From assembly GCA_964599915.1 (NCBI GenBank), contig CAZRHR010000002.1, positions 3,617 through 67,616 of the forward strand: 64,000 nt of DNA. Direction: 5' to 3'. The position numbers and the translations under genes were made by a program. Shown here in pieces: positions 27,419-32,568 of the stretch. Position 1 is the stretch's first letter; every line of letters starts with the position of its first letter. This stretch comes from an uncultured Candidatus Competibacteraceae bacterium. GTDB taxonomy: Bacteria > Bacteroidota > Bacteroidia > CAIKAF01. The notes below the pieces were generated by a model, which worked only from the letters and a program-made list of their open reading frames with translations, was not told the DNA's origin and did not search any database.

Positions 27419-28429
27419 TTAAGAAACATGATGGGGATGATACGCCGCTTTAAAAATTCTTTCCATGGCTTGAGGTTGTAAGCCGCGACCTATACACACA
27501 ATAAGCCCCTCAGGGAAATCGGGTAAAACCTCATTTACGGGCGTAAGGGAAGTTCTATTGCCTGTGGTTTGCAACAAACAGGGCATTTTTCCCAAAGGTT
27601 CGTCCGGCGCGACCACCCAAACAAAGCCTTTAATACGATATATCTGCTCATAATACATGACCATGGCCATGTTCAGCGTATGAAGCAATGCACGTGGATC
27701 AAAAAGGGCTTGGGGAATCAACGAAAAACTATTCATTTCGTGCGCTGCTGGAGCCGCCTGAGTCGGCAACATAAAACGTAAGGGAAATTGCAAGCGATGC
27801 TGGGGAATCACGTCCAACGGCACACGCCCCTCCGGAGCGGGATGCAAAGGCGCCAAAGGGTTAATGGACCTCAAAGTTTTCTCCAATGCTTCCGAAACAC
27901 TTTCCGTAGAGCGATTTAAAATGAGTGCATCAGCCAAGGCAATTTGTCGGTGAATTTCTCCGATGTCCTTTAACCTTGCGACCACCTGTTCTACATCAAT
28001 CACGGTAACCAATGCTTGCACCTCAAAATAAGCCGCCACATCCGGCCGGATAAATAGGGCGGCCAAACTTCCCGGATCGGCAATTCCTGTGGTTTCAATA
28101 ATGATGCGTAAAGGAGGATTTTCCAATTGGGAAACATCCGCCAACACATCGAACAAAGCTTCATTCAACGAACAGCAAATACATCCGTTGGATAATTCTT
28201 CTACCCCTTGTATGGCGCTGTACAACAACTTTCCATCAATGCCTACCTCGCCGAACTCATTTTCTATGACCAATGTTTTTTGGTCTTGAAACTGGGATAA
28301 CCAATGGTTCAAAACCGTCGTCTTGCCTGCACCCAAAAAGCCACTCAGAATGATCACCGGAATGGGACGCTTTGGGGCCGTTGGTTGCGTTGATATTTCT
28401 TCTATTTGTTCCTCCATAGGGGCATACAC
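27419..28429 (-). CDS. CobW/COG0523-family G3E GTPase (putative metallochaperone)
   Basis: P-loop GFLGAGKTT and a CxCC motif (CICC) typical of COG0523. Confidence 0.8.
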   Translation of the reverse strand: MYAPMEEQIEEISTQPTAPKRPIPVIILSGFLGAGKTTVLNHWLSQFQDQKTLVIENEFGEVGIDGKLLYSAIQGVEELSNGCICCSLNEALFDVLADVSQLENPPLRIIIETTGIADPGSLAALFIRPDVAAYFEVQALVTVIDVEQVVARLKDIGEIHRQIALADALILNRSTESVSEALEKTLRSINPLAPLHPAPEGRVPLDVIPQHRLQFPLRFMLPTQAAPAAHEMNSFSLIPQALFDPRALLHTLNMAMVMYYEQIYRIKGFVWVVAPDEPLGKMPCLLQTTGNRTSLTPVNEVLPDFPEGLIVCIGRGLQPQAMERIFKAAYHPHHVS

Positions 28430-28553: not shown

Positions 28554-29174
28554 TCATTTTCTCTTCTGTCTTCTTTTACTGTAAGATGCCGCATGTGAAA
28601 AAATGCCAACCCTCAAAGGGGATTTCAGCATACACTTTTGCCAAAAAGCCAAAACATACAACCACTCTACGGCTTCATCGCCAACCGCCACACAACCCGT
28701 AGAAGAGGCTCCGCCATGGATATAAATGTCGGAACCGGGCGCATCCGGAAACGCGCGCGCCACATCCTCCGGACGAGGAAAATCTAACCTCATAGACAGA
28801 TGAAACCTGCTTTCTGGATTTAACCGAATCACGGTAAACCAACCTTCCGGCATTTGCCCATCGCCTTCTTTTCGTTTTGGGCCAAGGGTTCCGGAAAAAG
28901 CGGTGAGCGGAAGGGAAAAAACAAAGACGGGTGAAAATTTTCGCTGGTGATACACAAAATATCCTTCCAGTATTCTTTCACGTTTATTGACCCAAAAAAG
29001 CCAACCGGGGTCTTTCGATTGGGGTTGAAGCGATGACAAGAGACCCAAAAGGGCCTGATGCTTTTTTTGCCATGCGTTTTTGACCCGCTTCTTTTGAACA
29101 TGGCGGTAGGGCCAAGTTTGGGTAGACAGAAAAAGAGACTGAAACCAAGAAAGGGGCATGGAAAAGGACGCCAT
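28554..29174 (-). CDS. L,D-transpeptidase (YkuD) domain protein
   Basis: IHGGASSTGCVAV matches the Ldt catalytic His...Cys signature (HG..S.GC). The family call is moderately confident. Confidence 0.55.
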   Translation of the reverse strand: MASFSMPLSWFQSLFLSTQTWPYRHVQKKRVKNAWQKKHQALLGLLSSLQPQSKDPGWLFWVNKRERILEGYFVYHQRKFSPVFVFSLPLTAFSGTLGPKRKEGDGQMPEGWFTVIRLNPESRFHLSMRLDFPRPEDVARAFPDAPGSDIYIHGGASSTGCVAVGDEAVEWLYVLAFWQKCMLKSPLRVGIFSHAASYSKRRQKRK

Positions 29175-29205: not shown

Positions 29206-30300
29206 TTAATTCAACGCTTTGGCCAAGGTAAAAGAAAAGGTAGAACCGCGTCCTACCAAGCTACGCACATAAATGGTCTGTCCATGCGCTTCGATCATGT
29301 GCTTTACGATGGCCAAGCCAAGTCCGGTTCCGCCCTGGTGTCGGGCACGACTTTTATCGATGCGATAAAACCTTTCAAAGAGTCGGGGTAAATGTTTTTC
29401 TTCAATCCCGGGACCGTCGTCTGTAACCTCCACCAATACCACTTCATCCATGTCATAAAAGGAGACTTTGGTGCAACCCCCTTCCTTGCCATACACAATG
29501 GAATTCATAAGTAAATTGGTCATCACCTGTTGAATGGCGTTTCGGTCGGCCATCACTTGAAAGGGCGTGGGCTCGGAATCTTTAAATTTTAAAGTTACGT
29601 CCCTTTGCCGGGCAGGAAGCTCTAGCATTTCCATGACCTGACGCACCAATTCCACAATGTCCAAGGATTCCAGAACCAGTTGCAGCCGCCCAGATTCCAA
29701 CTTATACATGGTATCTAAGTCTTCCACCAAAGAAATCATGCGTTCAATGTTGGTTTCTGCGGATCGAAGGTATTTTTCCGCAATATCTTCGTCTTTGTAT
29801 CCTCCATCGGCGAGGGTACTTACATAGCCTTGAATATTGAAAATAGGGGTTTTGAGTTCATGGGATAAATTGCCAATAAAATCGCGGCGGTAAGATTCAA
29901 GGGTTTTCAATTCTTCAATTTCGGCGCGTCGGCGGTTGGCCCAGGCAATCACCTCTTCGTTGACTTGTCCAATGACATCTCCTCCGGCACGAATGCGGGT
30001 AAGTAAACCGGGGTCTTCCGGAGAGCGGGCTTTAAGTCGATGAATGGTTTTATAAACAAGTTTAATTTTCCGGTATACAAAGGTTTCTGTAGACACACGC
30101 ACAAGCGTAAACATCAGGGGAAAAAAAACGAGGACCAGAAGTAAAACGGCCGTCCATGGCACATACCCTAAAGTGAGAAGAAATACGACGACGGCCACCA
30201 ATGAAAGGGACATGCTGGCCACGATGGCCACAAAGAGTGATAATTGGCGTGGAGAAGCGTGTTTTAAAGAAAATAAAGTGGGTAAAGGCATAGTTACCAT
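29206..30300 (-). CDS. sensor histidine kinase (two TM helices, HisKA + HATPase_c)
   Basis: H-box LSHELKTP is present. N, G1 and G2 boxes: NLLMNSIVYG, DDGPGI, GTGLGL. Confidence 0.9.
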   Translation of the reverse strand: MVTMPLPTLFSLKHASPRQLSLFVAIVASMSLSLVAVVVFLLTLGYVPWTAVLLLVLVFFPLMFTLVRVSTETFVYRKIKLVYKTIHRLKARSPEDPGLLTRIRAGGDVIGQVNEEVIAWANRRRAEIEELKTLESYRRDFIGNLSHELKTPIFNIQGYVSTLADGGYKDEDIAEKYLRSAETNIERMISLVEDLDTMYKLESGRLQLVLESLDIVELVRQVMEMLELPARQRDVTLKFKDSEPTPFQVMADRNAIQQVMTNLLMNSIVYGKEGGCTKVSFYDMDEVVLVEVTDDGPGIEEKHLPRLFERFYRIDKSRARHQGGTGLGLAIVKHMIEAHGQTIYVRSLVGRGSTFSFTLAKALN

Positions 30301-30989
30301 TCAAATTTATAACCAACCCCTTTAACGGTTTTAATGCAGGAGTCGCCTATTTTCTCCCGCAATTTACGAATATGTACATCAATGGTCCGGTCGCCAACCA
30401 CCACCTCATCTCCCCAAACTTTTTTCAATATTTTTTCTCGAGAAAAAACCTTGCCCGGTTTGCCGGCAAGAAGGTACAGGAGTTCGAATTCTTTTTTAGG
30501 CAAATGGAATTGGACGTCATTTTGTGTCACCACATAGGCATCCCGGTCGATGACCAAGTTGCTCACCCGAATCACGTCTTGTATGACTTGCTCTTTGGGT
30601 TTATCCTGAGGAAACCTTCTCAGTAATGCGGCCACACGGCTCATCAGCACACGCGGCCTGAGCGGTTTTGAAATATAATCATCGGCACCCGCTTCAAAAC
30701 CAGCAATTTGAGAATAATCTTCGCCCCGGGCGGTTAAAAAGCATACAAGCGTATGTTGTAAAGATTCATGGGTCCGGATTTCTTTCAACGTTTCTATGCC
30801 ATCCAAATCCGGCATCATCACGTCTAAAATGACCAGATGAGGCAAAAATTGTAAAGCCGTTTTTACCGCGTCTTTTCCATTGCTTGCAGTAGCAATTTGG
30901 TAACCTTCGCGGCGGAGGTTGTAAGACAAGATTTCCAGAATATCTGGCTCATCGTCTACTAATAATATTCTAAAGCTTTCATTTTCCAT
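30294..30989 (-). CDS. OmpR-family response regulator
   Basis: The receiver domain starts ILLVDDEPDI, with the phospho-acceptor in LVILDVMMPDLDG. A winged-helix C-terminus follows. 7-bp overlap with the kinase gene. Confidence 0.9.
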   Translation of the reverse strand: MENESFRILLVDDEPDILEILSYNLRREGYQIATASNGKDAVKTALQFLPHLVILDVMMPDLDGIETLKEIRTHESLQHTLVCFLTARGEDYSQIAGFEAGADDYISKPLRPRVLMSRVAALLRRFPQDKPKEQVIQDVIRVSNLVIDRDAYVVTQNDVQFHLPKKEFELLYLLAGKPGKVFSREKILKKVWGDEVVVGDRTIDVHIRKLREKIGDSCIKTVKGVGYKFEW

Positions 30990-31248
30990 ATAAATCTTAC
31001 CTGAATTTGCACCAAAGTTAAGCTGCGAAAATTAATTTAATGTTAAGCATTACGAATTTTATATACAGAATTTCAAATTGTTAAAACAAAAATTTAATTC
31101 TTAAATCAAGGCAAAAAGTGGCAAAAACACATTACATGTTTAATATTAAGCAAGGAGATGTGTTGGCACTTGGAAATTTTCAAACCAATCCTATACCTTT
31201 GTGATAAGTTAAAACAAACTAAATTTAAACCACAAAAGGGCGTACACA

Positions 31249-31493
31249 TGAAGTTTACCGCACTCCCCACGGCAGACACAGAACTAGAATCATCGATGTT
31301 CGGTGTGCACATGTACATGGCTTCCGCTTCCGGTTTCGGCCCGGAAGATGAGGATGAGGACGATGACATGGATGATGATCTCTTCGATGACGACGAGGAT
31401 GACAGCGATGATGATGAGCTGGATTTTCTCGAAGACTCTGACCTGGAAGACTTCGACACTTATGACGAAGAGGATGAAGAGGATTTCTACTAA
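31249..31493 (+). CDS. small, extremely acidic protein (C-terminal ~50 aa almost entirely D/E)
   Basis: 81-aa ORF; mixed synonymous codons (GAT/GAC/GAA/GAG) argue for selection on the protein rather than a simple repeat. It has its own downstream terminator. An antisense poly-Ser ORF overlaps it. Confidence 0.55.
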
Positions 31494-31523
31494 TTTCATC
31501 CTAAGGTTCAACGGATTGTTTAC

Positions 31524-31553
31524 GGCCACCTGTTATCGGGTGGTCTTTTTTTT
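31524..31553 (+). terminator. rho-independent terminator after acidic-protein gene
   Basis: GGCCACC-tgttatcg-GGTGGTC stem followed by eight T residues. Confidence 0.7.
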
Positions 31554-31566
31554 GTAACCTGCGGCC

Positions 31567-32568
31567 ATGCAATTTCAACGGTTTATCACAGATATTTTCC
31601 ACATCCAAAACGAAACCCAATTCGACCGCCTGGCCCTGCAATTATTTTATTATCAAGCTGAAAAAGTAGATGTGTATCGAAGGTTCATCGCCGCATTAGG
31701 AGTAACCGCTAAACGCATTAAGCGCGTGAAAGATATTCCTTTCATGCCTGTTGAATTTTTCCGCGACCATGCTGTGCATGACCAGCCCGAAAATCCCGCC
31801 TTATGTTTTGAATCTTCCGCCACCACCCAAACCCAACGTTCACGACATTTTGTACATGCACCCGGACTTTATGAAAAAAGCTTCTTAGAAGGCTTTACCC
31901 GCCAATATGGTGCGCCGGAAAACTGGGCCATCCTCGGTTTACTTCCCTCCTATTTAGACCGACCCAATGCGTCACTGCTCTACATGACTGCCGAACTTAT
32001 CCGAAGGTCGCCTTTTCAACAAAGTGGATTTTATCCCACAGCAGACGAACATTTCATTGGCGCCGTCCATGCGGCCCAACAAGCTAAAATACCAACACTG
32101 GTTCTTGGGGTTAGTTTTGCCCTGCTAGATTGGGCAGAAGCATATCCCATGCCACTAAACGGTATTACCCTAATGGAAACCGGCGGCATGAAAGGCCGAC
32201 GCGAAGAATGGATTCGCGATGCACTCCACCAAAAGCTTATGCGGGCCTTTGGTCTTTCCGCTATTCATTCAGAATATGGCATGACGGAAATGCTGTCCCA
32301 ATGCTACGCCAAAGAAAAAGGATGGTTCAAAGCGCCTCCTTGGGTTAAAATTCAAATCCGTGACCCGAAAGACCCCTTCGACCTAGTCCCTACGGGCACA
32401 CTCGGAGGCGTTAATATTATTGATTTGGCTAACCTACACTCCTGCGCATTTATTGCCGTTCAAGACGTAGGAAGAATGCGTGAAGACGGAAAATTCAGTA
32501 TTGAAGGAAGATTCGATGAGGCCGATGTCCGTGGATGCAACCTCATGGCTCCTCCACGTTCAGAATAA
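31567..32568 (+). CDS. LuxE/PaaK-like acyl-protein synthetase (adenylate-forming enzyme)
   Basis: 333 aa. The N-terminal region and overall pattern resemble Bacteroidota LuxE-family acyl-protein synthetases. The call is from memory of the family, not a motif proof. Confidence 0.5.
   Translation: MQFQRFITDIFHIQNETQFDRLALQLFYYQAEKVDVYRRFIAALGVTAKRIKRVKDIPFMPVEFFRDHAVHDQPENPALCFESSATTQTQRSRHFVHAPGLYEKSFLEGFTRQYGAPENWAILGLLPSYLDRPNASLLYMTAELIRRSPFQQSGFYPTADEHFIGAVHAAQQAKIPTLVLGVSFALLDWAEAYPMPLNGITLMETGGMKGRREEWIRDALHQKLMRAFGLSAIHSEYGMTEMLSQCYAKEKGWFKAPPWVKIQIRDPKDPFDLVPTGTLGGVNIIDLANLHSCAFIAVQDVGRMREDGKFSIEGRFDEADVRGCNLMAPPRSE

What the first reader, a model, noticed from the sequence alone, without database searches (positions are those of the whole stretch)
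31249..31553. Monocistronic gene for an 81-aa hyper-acidic protein (C-terminal 50 aa about 80% D/E) with its own terminator; antisense poly-Ser ORF is probably an artefact
The ORF MKFTALPTADTELESSMFGVHMYMASASGFGPEDEDEDDDMDDDLFDDDEDDSDDDELDFLEDSDLEDFDTYDEEDEEDFY uses mixed synonymous codons, is preceded by a 260-bp AT-rich divergent promoter region, and is followed at 31524-31553 by a strong intrinsic terminator. That arrangement implies an independently expressed small protein. A protein this acidic could be a DNA mimic or anti-restriction-like protein, a metal/Ca-binding protein, or a chaperone-like or anti-sigma/partner-switch peptide. It sits between a two-component system on the divergent strand and an orphan LuxE-like adenylating enzyme. 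No signal peptide or TM helix is present. I cannot assign it to a known family from memory.
Basis: seen in the sequence. Interest (0 to 1): 0.6.

Follow-up and report, generated by a model that had tools for sequence, protein, structure and literature searches.

The report
Orphan hyper-acidic small protein gene
This is a real, conserved gene for an 81-residue, extremely acidic and probably unstructured protein that belongs to no known family. It occurs only in one uncultured group of Bacteroidota and always sits directly in front of the same adenylate-forming enzyme gene. Its function is still unknown.

Summary
The ORF is 31248-31493 (+), 81 aa, with 38 D/E and 1 K/R. Residues 33-81 are 71% D/E, not about 80%.

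The gene has a canonical Bacteroidota -7 box (TACCTTTG, 31194-31201) and an intrinsic terminator (31524-31553).

Syntenic orthologues of 74-82 aa exist in five lineages. dN/dS is 0.06-0.15, all indels are in frame, and a C-terminal motif is invariant: DLDFL..L[DE]D[FL]DTYD..two hydrophobic residues at the C-terminus.

The antisense poly-Ser ORF is a mirror artefact. It shrinks to 35-57 aa in distant relatives.

No Pfam, NCBIfam, PHROG, PADLOC or PDB match was found, and there are no phage relatives. AlphaFold predicts disorder.

The gene's constant neighbour is the LuxE-like (PaaK-fold) enzyme gene, not the two-component system. Upstream neighbours vary: a response regulator, Fic, or gldBC. 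In three lineages the enzyme's ATG follows the terminator T-run by 2-13 nt with no exact promoter box, so "monocistronic" is only partly right.

Best reading (about 0.4): an abundant disordered polyanion that docks on a partner through its C-terminal motif. The most likely partner is the downstream enzyme, with the terminator setting the expression ratio.

The DNA-mimic/anti-restriction reading is unsupported.

The parts
31170..31173 (+). -33-like TTG(G) element, 21 nt upstream of the -7 box
   Evidence: Sequence context. The aligned position reads TTTG in L007 and L099. The -33 TTG / -7 TAnnTTTG layout of Bacteroidota sigma-A promoters is from my own knowledge of the literature.
31194..31201 (+). 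-7 promoter box TACCTTTG (exact TAnnTTTG). The predicted transcription start is near 31206, giving a leader of about 42 nt.
   Evidence: The same octamer lies upstream of the orthologues in L003, L006, L007, L099 and L103; L101/L106 have TAAATTTG. In F. psychrophilum the box occupies -12 to -5 (PMC9723704).
31158..31247 (+). Spurious N-terminal extension used by public 111-aa gene calls
   Evidence: P0001 starts here. The ATG lies upstream of the predicted transcription start and is absent or diverged in L007, L099, L101 and L103.
31248..31493 (+). Coding sequence of the 81-aa hyper-acidic protein, stop codon included
31248..31343 (+). Module 1: non-acidic N-terminal 32 residues ending in GFGP. 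It is conserved within lineages and only weakly between them.
   Evidence: Alignment A7. In all five lineages 32-36 residues precede the acidic tract.
31344..31418 (+). Module 2: poly-D/E spacer (residues 33-57) with embedded M/L/F. Its length varies by in-frame indels.
31419..31490 (+). Module 3: invariant C-terminal motif LDFLEDSDLEDFDTYD, then an acidic run and a terminal F-Y
   Evidence: Invariant L58 D59 F60 L61 D63 L66 D68 D70 T71 Y72 D73 D76 across lineages. Many synonymous changes occur under an unchanged peptide.
31524..31553 (+). Intrinsic terminator: 9-bp GC-rich stem, 4-nt loop and T8. The T-tract plus G also reads TTTTTTTG, one mismatch from a -7 box.
   Evidence: A hairpin plus U-tract of different sequence sits at the same place in L099, L101 and L103.
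31567..32568 (+). LuxE-like / PaaK-fold adenylate-forming enzyme gene, the constant downstream partner
   Evidence: Pfam LuxE 1.6e-08. AF2 model pLDDT 90.3; best PDB folds are BT_0428 and PaaK. The adjacency holds in all five lineages.
31106..31459 (-). Antisense poly-Ser ORF (117 aa), a mirror-image artefact of the GAN-rich sense strand
   Evidence: Its stop-free length falls through 117, 90, 89, 81, 57, 57, 39 and 35 aa in relatives, with unrelated ends. It runs through the sense promoter. The terminator is oriented for the + strand.
31013..31020 (-). -7 box TAACTTTG of the divergent response-regulator operon
   Evidence: The region is conserved in relatives.
29206..30989 (-). HK (29206-30300) and OmpR/PhoB-type RR (30294-30989), divergent neighbours in two of four contexts
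   Evidence: They are absent next to the orthologues in L099 and L103.

Best explanation
SHOWN. Positions 31248-31493 encode a real 81-aa protein restricted to one uncultured clade of Bacteroidota.
- It has a canonical Bacteroidota sigma-A promoter (TACCTTTG -7 box), a leader of about 42 nt and a strong intrinsic terminator.
- It is under purifying selection and is predicted to be disordered.
- It has three modules: about 32 non-acidic residues, a poly-D/E spacer of variable length, and an invariant C-terminal motif DLDFL..L[DE]D[FL]DTYD..two hydrophobic residues at the C-terminus.
- In every lineage it lies immediately upstream of, and co-oriented with, a LuxE-like (PaaK-fold) adenylate-forming enzyme gene.

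INFERRED.
- Most transcripts stop at the terminator and yield abundant acidic protein. A minority read through and supply a small amount of enzyme, so the terminator sets the ratio between the two.
- The protein acts in trans. Its conserved C-terminal acidic-hydrophobic motif docks on a partner, most likely the downstream enzyme, as a regulatory or solubilising subunit or as an acceptor-like substrate.
- The polyanionic spacer provides long-range electrostatic attraction or polyanion mimicry.
- The non-acidic N-terminus fills the ribosomal exit tunnel so that the D/E tract can be translated without ribosome destabilisation.
For: Coding status:
- Codon-position differences between window and L007 are 8/7/44. 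dN/dS is 0.056 against L003 and 0.146 against L006.
- All indels are multiples of 3.
- Start and stop positions are conserved in 74-82-aa orthologues.
- An HMM built from the window lineage alone scores L099 at 39.7 bits, L103 at 26.7, L106 at 15.8 and L101 at 14.3. Two hundred composition-matched shuffles score at most 5.2 bits.

Transcription unit:
- The -7 box is conserved.
- A terminator is present in all lineages with different stem sequences.

Link to the enzyme:
- Upstream neighbours differ: RR in the window lineage and in L100/L101, Fic in L099, gldB-gldC in L103. Downstream neighbours differ too. The acidic-to-LuxE adjacency is constant.
- No exact TAnnTTTG lies between the acidic ATG and the LuxE ATG in the window lineage, L099 or L103. 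The T-run to ATG distance is 13, 2 and 2 nt.
- By contrast, 46 of 65 other Bacteroidota LuxE-like genes have their own box within 150 nt.

Disorder: AF2 pLDDT 59.5, pTM 0.11, no secondary structure.

N-terminal module: protection against ribosome destabilisation plateaus at about 30 preceding residues (10.1101/2021.02.02.429294). Here 32-36 residues precede the tract.

Precedents for a terminator setting a small-product-to-enzyme ratio: mccA-mccB (PMC4231749) and ABC-transporter operons (PMC9045158).
Against: - No binding or expression data exist.
- The LuxE-like enzyme works without such a partner in all 80 other Bacteroidota loci examined.
- The enzymes next to the acidic gene show no shift in net charge. 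They have only one clade-specific basic position against one acidic, so there is no sign of a co-evolved electrostatic interface.
- The eight loci are monophyletic in the LuxE tree. The adjacency may therefore simply be inherited, or kept because the enzyme depends on the upstream promoter.
- In L100/L101/L106 the enzyme has its own perfect TACCTTTG box 4 nt before its ATG, after an 85-nt spacer. Co-transcription is therefore not universal.
- In window, L003 and L006 the T-tract plus G (TTTTTTTG) could act as a weak promoter.
- The AF2 alignment had only 4 sequences.
Confidence: 0.4

Rival explanations
1. The protein is a free-standing cytoplasmic polyanion. It would act as a nucleic-acid or polyphosphate mimic, as a prothymosin-like chaperone or competitor for basic proteins such as nucleoid proteins, ribosomal proteins or DNA-binding domains, or as a high-capacity Mg2+/Ca2+/polyamine buffer. 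Its position before the LuxE-like gene would then be only a transcriptional hitch-hike inherited from the clade ancestor.
For: Net charge is -32 to -37 in all members, and disorder is predicted. The strong promoter and terminator suggest high expression. The loci are monophyletic, so one origin explains the adjacency. The enzyme shows no co-evolution signal. One lineage has uncoupled the enzyme's promoter.
Against: A pure charge buffer would not need an invariant 16-residue motif with fixed hydrophobic positions. The adjacency survived reshuffling of every other neighbour in four contexts. No basic partner gene is linked.
Confidence: 0.3
2. The ORF is a cis-acting leader that controls the LuxE-like gene. 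Translation of the long D/E tract would be sensitive to Mg2+ through intrinsic ribosome destabilisation, or to Asp/Glu-tRNA charging, and would modulate termination at the hairpin just before the enzyme's ATG.
For: The layout promoter, ORF, terminator, then ATG within 2-13 nt holds in three lineages. D/E runs destabilise translating ribosomes, and MgtL uses this for sensing.
Against: The peptide sequence, not only its codon content, is under strong purifying selection. The stop codon lies 25-32 nt before the hairpin, and no alternative antiterminator pairing appears in the folds. The 32-36-residue N-terminus is what suppresses ribosome destabilisation. The L100/L101/L106 lineage keeps the ORF although the enzyme has its own promoter. 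At 81 aa it is far longer than known leader peptides (own knowledge).
Confidence: 0.1
3. The protein is a connector or modulator of the divergent OmpR/PhoB-type two-component system. For example, it could mimic DNA for the RR's winged-helix domain, or it could be a target gene of that RR.
For: It shares a 258-bp divergent control region with the RR operon in the window lineage and in L100/L101. Blocks conserved within the window lineage (CATTACA..AATATTAAG) and a repeat TTTAATRTTAAGCA lie in that region. The HK has no periplasmic domain.
Against: In L099 the neighbour is Fic and in L103 it is gldB-gldC, with no HK/RR present. The same RR-LuxE synteny exists in 11 of 80 Flavobacteriia loci without any acidic gene. 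The repeat motif is not enriched in the window: 3 copies against 1.7 expected.
Confidence: 0.07
4. The protein is a mobile-element DNA mimic or anti-restriction/anti-defence protein of the Ocr or ArdA kind.
For: Only its small size and extreme acidity.
Against: There are no Pfam, PHROG or PADLOC hits. There are no relatives in IMG/VR or in phage records, although the tblastn low-complexity filter weakens. GC is typical of the genome. The context is housekeeping genes, and the LuxE tree indicates vertical inheritance. No fold is predicted, whereas known mimics are mostly folded (own knowledge).
Confidence: 0.02
5. The minus-strand poly-Ser ORF is the translated gene, or neither strand is translated and the transcript is a non-coding RNA.
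For: The antisense Ser frame shares its wobble positions with the sense frame, so it also shows a low apparent dN/dS of 0.10-0.22.
Against: Antisense stop-free length collapses to 35-57 aa in L099, L103 and L101/L106, and its ends are unrelated. The promoter box and terminator are oriented for the + strand. The sense ORF keeps its start, stop, length and motif in all lineages. There is no Rfam match. Saturated synonymous change under an unchanged peptide argues against a purely RNA-level function.
Confidence: 0.02

Closest known systems
Prothymosin-alpha-type polyanionic disordered proteins (eukaryotic; binds linker histone H1) - from my own knowledge
   Same: Small size, net charge around -35 to -45, no predicted fold, no signal peptide.
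   Different: No sequence relationship. This protein is bacterial and clade-restricted, carries an invariant acidic-hydrophobic C-terminal motif, and is tied to an enzyme gene. No basic partner is known.
DNA-mimic proteins (Ocr, ArdA, DMP12/DMP19, and the flexible mimic domain of SPO1 Gp44; PMC3643605, PMC8208478)
   Same: Small and very acidic. Gp44 shows that a flexible acidic domain can mimic nucleic acid.
   Different: There is no family match. The gene is not on a mobile element, and no fold is predicted. The acidity here is far more extreme, and it forms a tract rather than a shaped surface.
mccA - terminator - mccB architecture of microcin C operons (PMC4231749)
   Same: A short first ORF, then an intrinsic terminator in the intergenic gap, then an ATP-using adenylating enzyme. 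In the mcc operon the terminator produces an abundant short transcript and a minor read-through transcript.
   Different: MccA is a 7-aa substrate and MccB is an E1-like enzyme. Here the ORF is 81 aa and the enzyme is an ANL/PaaK-fold protein that is universal in Bacteroidota. No export, immunity or peptidase genes are present.
MgtL-type D/E(P) leader peptides and intrinsic ribosome destabilisation (10.1101/2021.02.02.429294)
   Same: An acidic ORF lies upstream of a regulated gene. The D/E tract is of the kind that destabilises ribosomes.
   Different: MgtL aborts within 6 residues. Here 32-36 non-acidic residues precede the tract, which is the condition that suppresses the effect. The peptide itself is conserved.
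SSB C-terminal acidic tip (DDDIPF) and acidic activation-domain-like short linear motifs - from my own knowledge
   Same: An acidic run that ends in hydrophobic or aromatic residues at the free C-terminus (EDFY, EDFF, DDFY, EDLV). Hydrophobic residues are embedded among acidic ones.
   Different: There is no Pro-Phe tip and no OB-fold domain. The resemblance is compositional only and was not tested.
Acyl carrier protein (DSL motif) next to an acyl-activating enzyme
   Same: Small, acidic, adjacent to an acyl-AMP-forming enzyme. The window protein contains D-S-D-L.
   Different: The Ser is replaced by Gly in L103 and by Glu in L101/L106. There is no PP-binding Pfam hit and no helical bundle is predicted.

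Membership tests
Anti-restriction / DNA-mimic families (Ocr, ArdA and similar) | Sequence match to the family profile | tested here: not met
   No Pfam hit at E<=10, no PHROG hit, no PADLOC hit, no PDB hit.
Anti-restriction / DNA-mimic families (Ocr, ArdA and similar) | Encoded on a phage, plasmid or conjugative element | tested here: not met
   No relatives in IMG/VR or in phage records. The flanks are housekeeping genes, GC is typical, and the LuxE tree indicates vertical inheritance.
Anti-restriction / DNA-mimic families (Ocr, ArdA and similar) | Folded scaffold that displays carboxylates with DNA-like spacing | tested here: inconclusive
   AF2 gives pLDDT 59.5 and no secondary structure, but from only 4 sequences.
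Acyl carrier protein (PF00550) | Invariant phosphopantetheine-attachment Ser in a DSL motif within a four-helix bundle | tested here: not met
   Ser64 is Gly in L103 and Glu in L101/L106. There is no Pfam hit and no helices are predicted.
RiPP precursor peptide | Leader plus core peptide with dedicated modification, export and protease genes in one cluster | tested here: not met
   The only constant neighbour is one ANL-fold enzyme that is universal in Bacteroidota without the peptide. No transporter or peptidase is conserved across contexts.
Transcription-attenuation leader peptide (MgtL / his / trp type) | Short ORF whose translation state selects between terminator and antiterminator structures that overlap it | tested here: not met
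   The ORF is 74-82 aa. Its stop codon is 25-32 nt before the hairpin, and the folds show a stand-alone hairpin with no competing structure. The peptide is under purifying selection.
Transcription-attenuation leader peptide (MgtL / his / trp type) | The regulated gene lacks its own promoter | tested here: inconclusive
   Met in the window lineage, L099 and L103; not met in L101/L106. A one-mismatch box, TTTTTTTG, overlaps the T-tract in window, L003 and L006.
Bacteroidota sigma-A-dependent transcription unit | TAnnTTTG -7 box upstream of the start and a hairpin plus U-tract after the stop | tested here: met
   TACCTTTG at 31194-31201 is conserved in relatives. Terminators. The motif definition comes from PMC9723704.
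Intrinsically disordered polyanionic proteins (a functional class, not a homology family) | Extreme net negative charge, low hydrophobicity, no predicted stable fold | tested here: met
   Net charge -32 to -37 in all members. Maximum Kyte-Doolittle average over 15 residues is 0.79. AF2 predicts no structure.
Protein partner or substrate of the LuxE-like enzyme (hypothesis) | Physical interaction with, or modification by, the enzyme | not testable with these tools
   Only gene adjacency in five lineages supports it. Charge and residue co-variation tests were negative.

The most novel reading that the evidence does not exclude
The acidic protein is a dedicated trans-acting partner of the LuxE-like, PaaK-fold adenylate-forming enzyme that is universal in Bacteroidota but of unknown function. 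It could be an acceptor whose carboxylates or invariant Thr-Tyr are modified, or an obligatory regulatory subunit. On this reading the gene arose de novo inside the enzyme's 5' leader in one clade. That would define a new enzyme-plus-disordered-polyanion system and give a handle on the enzyme's function.
Probability: 0.12. Interest if true: 0.7.

Novelty: new variant of a known kind. Interest (0 to 1): 0.45.

Why it matters
Hyper-acidic disordered proteins are well studied in eukaryotes and phages, but few chromosomal bacterial examples have been characterised.

This is a clean case of a taxonomically restricted gene. It has unmistakable purifying selection, a defined short linear motif, and one constant genomic partner. 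That partner is an adenylate-forming enzyme found across Bacteroidota whose role is unknown; deleting its Riemerella homologue lowers virulence (PMC4772473).

If the two proteins interact, the acidic protein becomes a probe for that enzyme's function. If they do not, the locus is still a tidy model for two questions: how a ribosome copes with a roughly 50-residue D/E tract, and how an internal terminator sets expression ratios in a phylum that lacks Shine-Dalgarno sequences.

The finding also corrects mis-called start codons in public gene predictions.

Tried and rejected
- **Single-sequence searches.** Searches of 5.8 billion and 1.84 billion proteins found only a 95%-identical copy. A profile search added one distant member, P0139. 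The metagenome scan returned only a near-identical contig from the window lineage that was already held as L001. The viral scan and phage tblastn returned nothing.
- **Acidic ORFs near other LuxE-like genes.** None of the 80 other loci has one, either by composition or by HMM.
- **ACP-like carrier idea.** Rejected because the Ser is not conserved.
- **Fusion (Rosetta-stone) check.** Longer LuxE homologues have no acidic extension.
- **Co-evolution tests on the enzyme.** Net charge and clade-specific basic residues were both negative.
- **dN/dS as a strand discriminator.** It cannot separate the sense frame from the antisense Ser frame, because the two share wobble positions. ORF integrity in distant relatives does separate them.
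- **RR-binding-site idea.** The motif AATRTTAAG is not enriched.
- **Amphipathic helix.** The hydrophobic moment of the C-terminal motif is low, at most 0.27, so I do not claim one.
- **Structure prediction with the locus-derived alignment.** A fold search on that model would be meaningless and was not run.
- **Weak hits treated as noise.** The Rfam hit to sR45 (E = 0.37) and the NCBIfam hit to ZrgA (E = 0.27) are compositional noise.
Full report
**1. Observation**

The ORF is present and translates exactly as reported.

- The protein has 38 D/E and one K/R in 81 residues, a net charge of about -37.
- Residues 33-81 hold 35 D/E of 49, which is 71%, not about 80%.
- No other gene in the window has more than 15 D/E in any 50-residue stretch.
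- The four D/E codons are mixed (GAT 14, GAC 11, GAA 7, GAG 6), and Tandem Repeats Finder reports only two weak short arrays. The tract is therefore not a DNA-level repeat.
- The 258-bp spacer to the divergent response-regulator gene is about 31% GC.
- The terminator is a 9-bp stem at 31524-31545 followed by T8. The 63-nt stretch that contains it folds to -17.5 kcal/mol, z = -2.9.
- The flanking genes are an OmpR/PhoB-type RR and an HK on the minus strand and a LuxE-like gene on the plus strand.

**2. The plus strand is the coding strand**

Direct database searches were nearly empty. phmmer against 5.8 billion proteins, and against 1.84 billion cluster representatives, found only a 95%-identical copy called as 111 aa.

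Walking through relatives of the neighbouring LuxE-like protein was more productive.

- Syntenic ORFs of 77-82 aa sit beside LuxE proteins of 85%, 86% and 70% identity.
- Between window and L007 the nucleotide differences fall 8/7/44 on codon positions 1/2/3. Synonymous sites are saturated (pS 0.78) while pN is 0.135.
- dN/dS is 0.056 against L003 and 0.146 against L006.
- All indels in the acidic tract are multiples of three.

The antisense poly-Ser frame shares its wobble positions with the sense frame. It therefore also shows a low apparent dN/dS, and that statistic cannot decide the strand. ORF integrity does decide it.

- The antisense stop-free stretch is 117, 90, 89 and 81 aa in the window lineage.
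- It is only 35, 39, 57 and 57 aa in L099, L103, L101 and L106, with unrelated ends.
- The sense ORF keeps its start, stop and length (74-82 aa) everywhere.
- The promoter box and the terminator are oriented for the plus strand.

**3. Extent of the family**

A profile of the window-lineage sequences recovered one distant member, P0139 (E = 4.5e-4). Two more lineages were found because their LuxE-like proteins share the signature LLDWAE..PMPL.

An HMM built only from the window lineage scores L099 at 39.7 bits, L103 at 26.7, L106 at 15.8 and L101 at 14.3. Two hundred composition-matched shuffles score at most 5.2 bits. The similarity is therefore more than shared acidity.

The alignment shows three modules.

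- **N-terminus:** 32-36 non-acidic residues ending in G-F-G/S-x-P.
- **Spacer:** a D/E tract of variable length with a few embedded M/L/F.
- **C-terminal motif:** invariant D-L-D-F-L, then 2-4 acidic residues, then x-[DE]-L-[DE]-D-[FL]-D-T-Y-D, then an acidic run and two terminal hydrophobic residues.

There is no match in Pfam, NCBIfam, PHROGs, PADLOC or PDB sequences, even at permissive thresholds. AlphaFold2 predicts no structure (pLDDT 59.5, pTM 0.11), although from a shallow alignment.

**4. Transcription unit**

The window uses Bacteroidota-type promoters. TAnnTTTG boxes precede many of its genes, including the RR operon (TAACTTTG, 31020-31013 on the minus strand) and the acidic gene (TACCTTTG, 31194-31201). 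In Flavobacterium psychrophilum this box occupies -12 to -5 (PMC9723704). That places the transcription start near 31206 and gives a leader of about 42 nt.

The same octamer precedes the orthologues in L003, L006, L007, L099 and L103; L101/L106 have TAAATTTG.

The upstream ATG at 31158, which public gene callers use, lies before this predicted start. It is also not conserved, so the 111-aa form is a mis-call.

Every lineage has a GC-rich hairpin plus U-tract 25-32 nt after the stop codon. The stem sequences differ between lineages.

**5. Which neighbour matters**

- The upstream neighbour is the divergent RR in the window lineage and in L100/L101.
- It is a Fic-domain gene in L099.
- It is gldB-gldC in L103.
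- The genes beyond the LuxE-like gene differ as well.
- The acidic gene is always immediately upstream of, and co-oriented with, the LuxE-like gene.

The same RR-LuxE divergent synteny occurs in 11 of 80 Flavobacteriia loci. There the gap holds secreted proteins that I read, from their N-terminal signal sequences and C-terminal ends, as T9SS-type; there is no acidic gene. None of the 80 other Bacteroidota loci with a LuxE-like gene has an acidic ORF.

In a neighbour-joining tree of LuxE-like proteins, the eight loci that carry the acidic gene form one clade among 74. The gene therefore arose once.

**6. Is the gene monocistronic?**

Only partly.

- In 46 of 65 other Bacteroidota loci the LuxE-like gene has its own TAnnTTTG within 150 nt of its ATG. 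In 13 of them the box ends 4-5 nt before the ATG, which is leaderless-type spacing.
- In the window lineage, L099 and L103 no exact box lies between the acidic ATG and the LuxE ATG. The ATG follows the terminator T-run by 13, 2 and 2 nt. The enzyme is then most simply expressed by terminator read-through.
- This is the layout that sets the product ratio in the mccA-mccB operon (PMC4231749) and in ABC-transporter operons (PMC9045158).

There are two caveats. In window, L003 and L006 the T-tract plus G reads TTTTTTTG, one mismatch from a -7 box, 12 nt before the ATG. And the L100/L101/L106 lineage has a perfect TACCTTTG 4 nt before the LuxE ATG, after an 85-nt spacer.

**7. Mechanism**

*Shown:* a clade-restricted, selected, probably disordered polyanion with an invariant C-terminal motif, tied to a PaaK-fold adenylate-forming enzyme. 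The enzyme's AF2 model has pLDDT 90.3, and its best PDB matches are BT_0428 and PaaK.

*Inferred:* the protein acts in trans through its motif on a partner, most likely the downstream enzyme, with the terminator setting a high protein-to-enzyme ratio.

*Evidence against a specific electrostatic interface:* the enzymes of the clade show no shift in net charge, and they have only one clade-specific basic position against one acidic.

A second inference concerns translation. D/E runs destabilise translating ribosomes unless about 30 residues already occupy the exit tunnel (10.1101/2021.02.02.429294). All lineages keep 32-36 non-acidic residues before the tract even though these residues differ between lineages. 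This may explain why module 1 exists.

*Rivals, in order:*
1. A free-standing polyanion (nucleic-acid mimic, chaperone or cation buffer) whose adjacency to the enzyme is inherited.
2. A cis-acting leader ORF.
3. A connector of the two-component system.
4. A mobile-element DNA mimic.
5. Translation of the antisense strand.

The last three are each contradicted by a test run here.

**8. Comparison with what is known, and verdict**

By sequence this is a new family. By kind it is a bacterial, chromosomal variant of the small polyanionic disordered proteins known from eukaryotes (prothymosin-alpha) and phages (flexible DNA-mimic domains). It also has an operon layout reminiscent of precursor-terminator-enzyme systems. 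It fails the defining tests for anti-restriction proteins, ACP, RiPP precursors and attenuation leaders.

The function of the LuxE-like partner in Bacteroidota is itself unknown. Deleting the Riemerella homologue reduces virulence (PMC4772473).

The finding is real and moderately interesting. Its value depends on whether the acidic protein and the enzyme interact, and these tools cannot test that.

Noticed in passing
window 31158-31247; L099 6001-6072; L103 4001-4024: Public gene calls start too early. The 111-aa (P0001/P0133/P0134) and 99-aa (P0139) forms of the acidic protein begin at non-conserved ATGs upstream of the predicted transcription start. The 338-aa LuxE call P0020 begins at an ATG inside the terminator loop.
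   Followed up: yes
L010-L089, upstream of the LuxE-like genes: In 46 of 65 Bacteroidota loci a TAnnTTTG box lies within 150 nt of the LuxE-like ATG. In 13 of them it ends 4-5 nt before the ATG, which is the spacing expected for leaderless mRNAs. That is notable because leaderless mRNAs are reported as rare (5.5%) in F. psychrophilum.
   Followed up: partly
L016, L033, L035, L036, L043, L050, L064, L066, L069: The divergent HK-RR / LuxE-like synteny of the window is also present in Flavobacteriia (RR 59-63% identical). There the gap holds one or two secreted proteins of about 100 aa, or larger ones, that I read by eye as T9SS-type (C-terminal tail resembling ..ATRKLV(I)K) instead of an acidic gene.
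   Followed up: partly
window 29206-30989 (-): The HK has two adjacent transmembrane helices and essentially no periplasmic loop, so it is of the intramembrane-sensing type. Its gene overlaps the RR gene by 7 nt. The RR's best NCBIfam model is Bacteroidetes PhoB, but below the cut-off (216 against 270 bits), so the system is PhoBR-like and not assignable.
   Followed up: no
window 31036-31049 and 31139-31152; 31129-31150: A direct repeat TTTAATRTTAAGCA occurs twice, 103 bp apart, in the divergent control region. A block CATTACA-N6-AATATTAAG is conserved out to L007. These may be regulator sites, but the core motif is not enriched in the window.
   Followed up: partly
window 31546-31554: The terminator T-tract plus the following G reads TTTTTTTG, one mismatch from the -7 consensus, 12 nt before the LuxE ATG. 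This is conserved in window, L003 and L006 but not in L007, L099 or L103. It could be a weak promoter embedded in the terminator.
   Followed up: partly
window 31567-32568 and the LuxE-like proteins of L003, L007, L099, L100, L103 and L106: The LuxE-like enzymes next to the acidic gene share clade-specific invariant residues (D72, P133, L138, A159, F163, W189, and mostly K223, within LLDWAE..PMPL) that are rare in 66 other Bacteroidota homologues. The model has a PaaK/BT_0428-like fold but is about 100 aa shorter than those enzymes.
   Followed up: partly
L099 3733-5280 (-): In one lineage the divergent upstream neighbour is a 515-aa Fic-domain protein. Fic enzymes AMPylate Thr or Tyr (own knowledge), and the acidic protein has an invariant Thr-Tyr pair. 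This is a single occurrence only.
   Followed up: no
window 27419-28429 (-) and 28554-29174 (-): A COG0523-type CobW/metallochaperone GTPase gene and a YkuD L,D-transpeptidase gene lie just beyond the HK. This arrangement is conserved in the window lineage. No link to the acidic gene was found outside that lineage.
   Followed up: no
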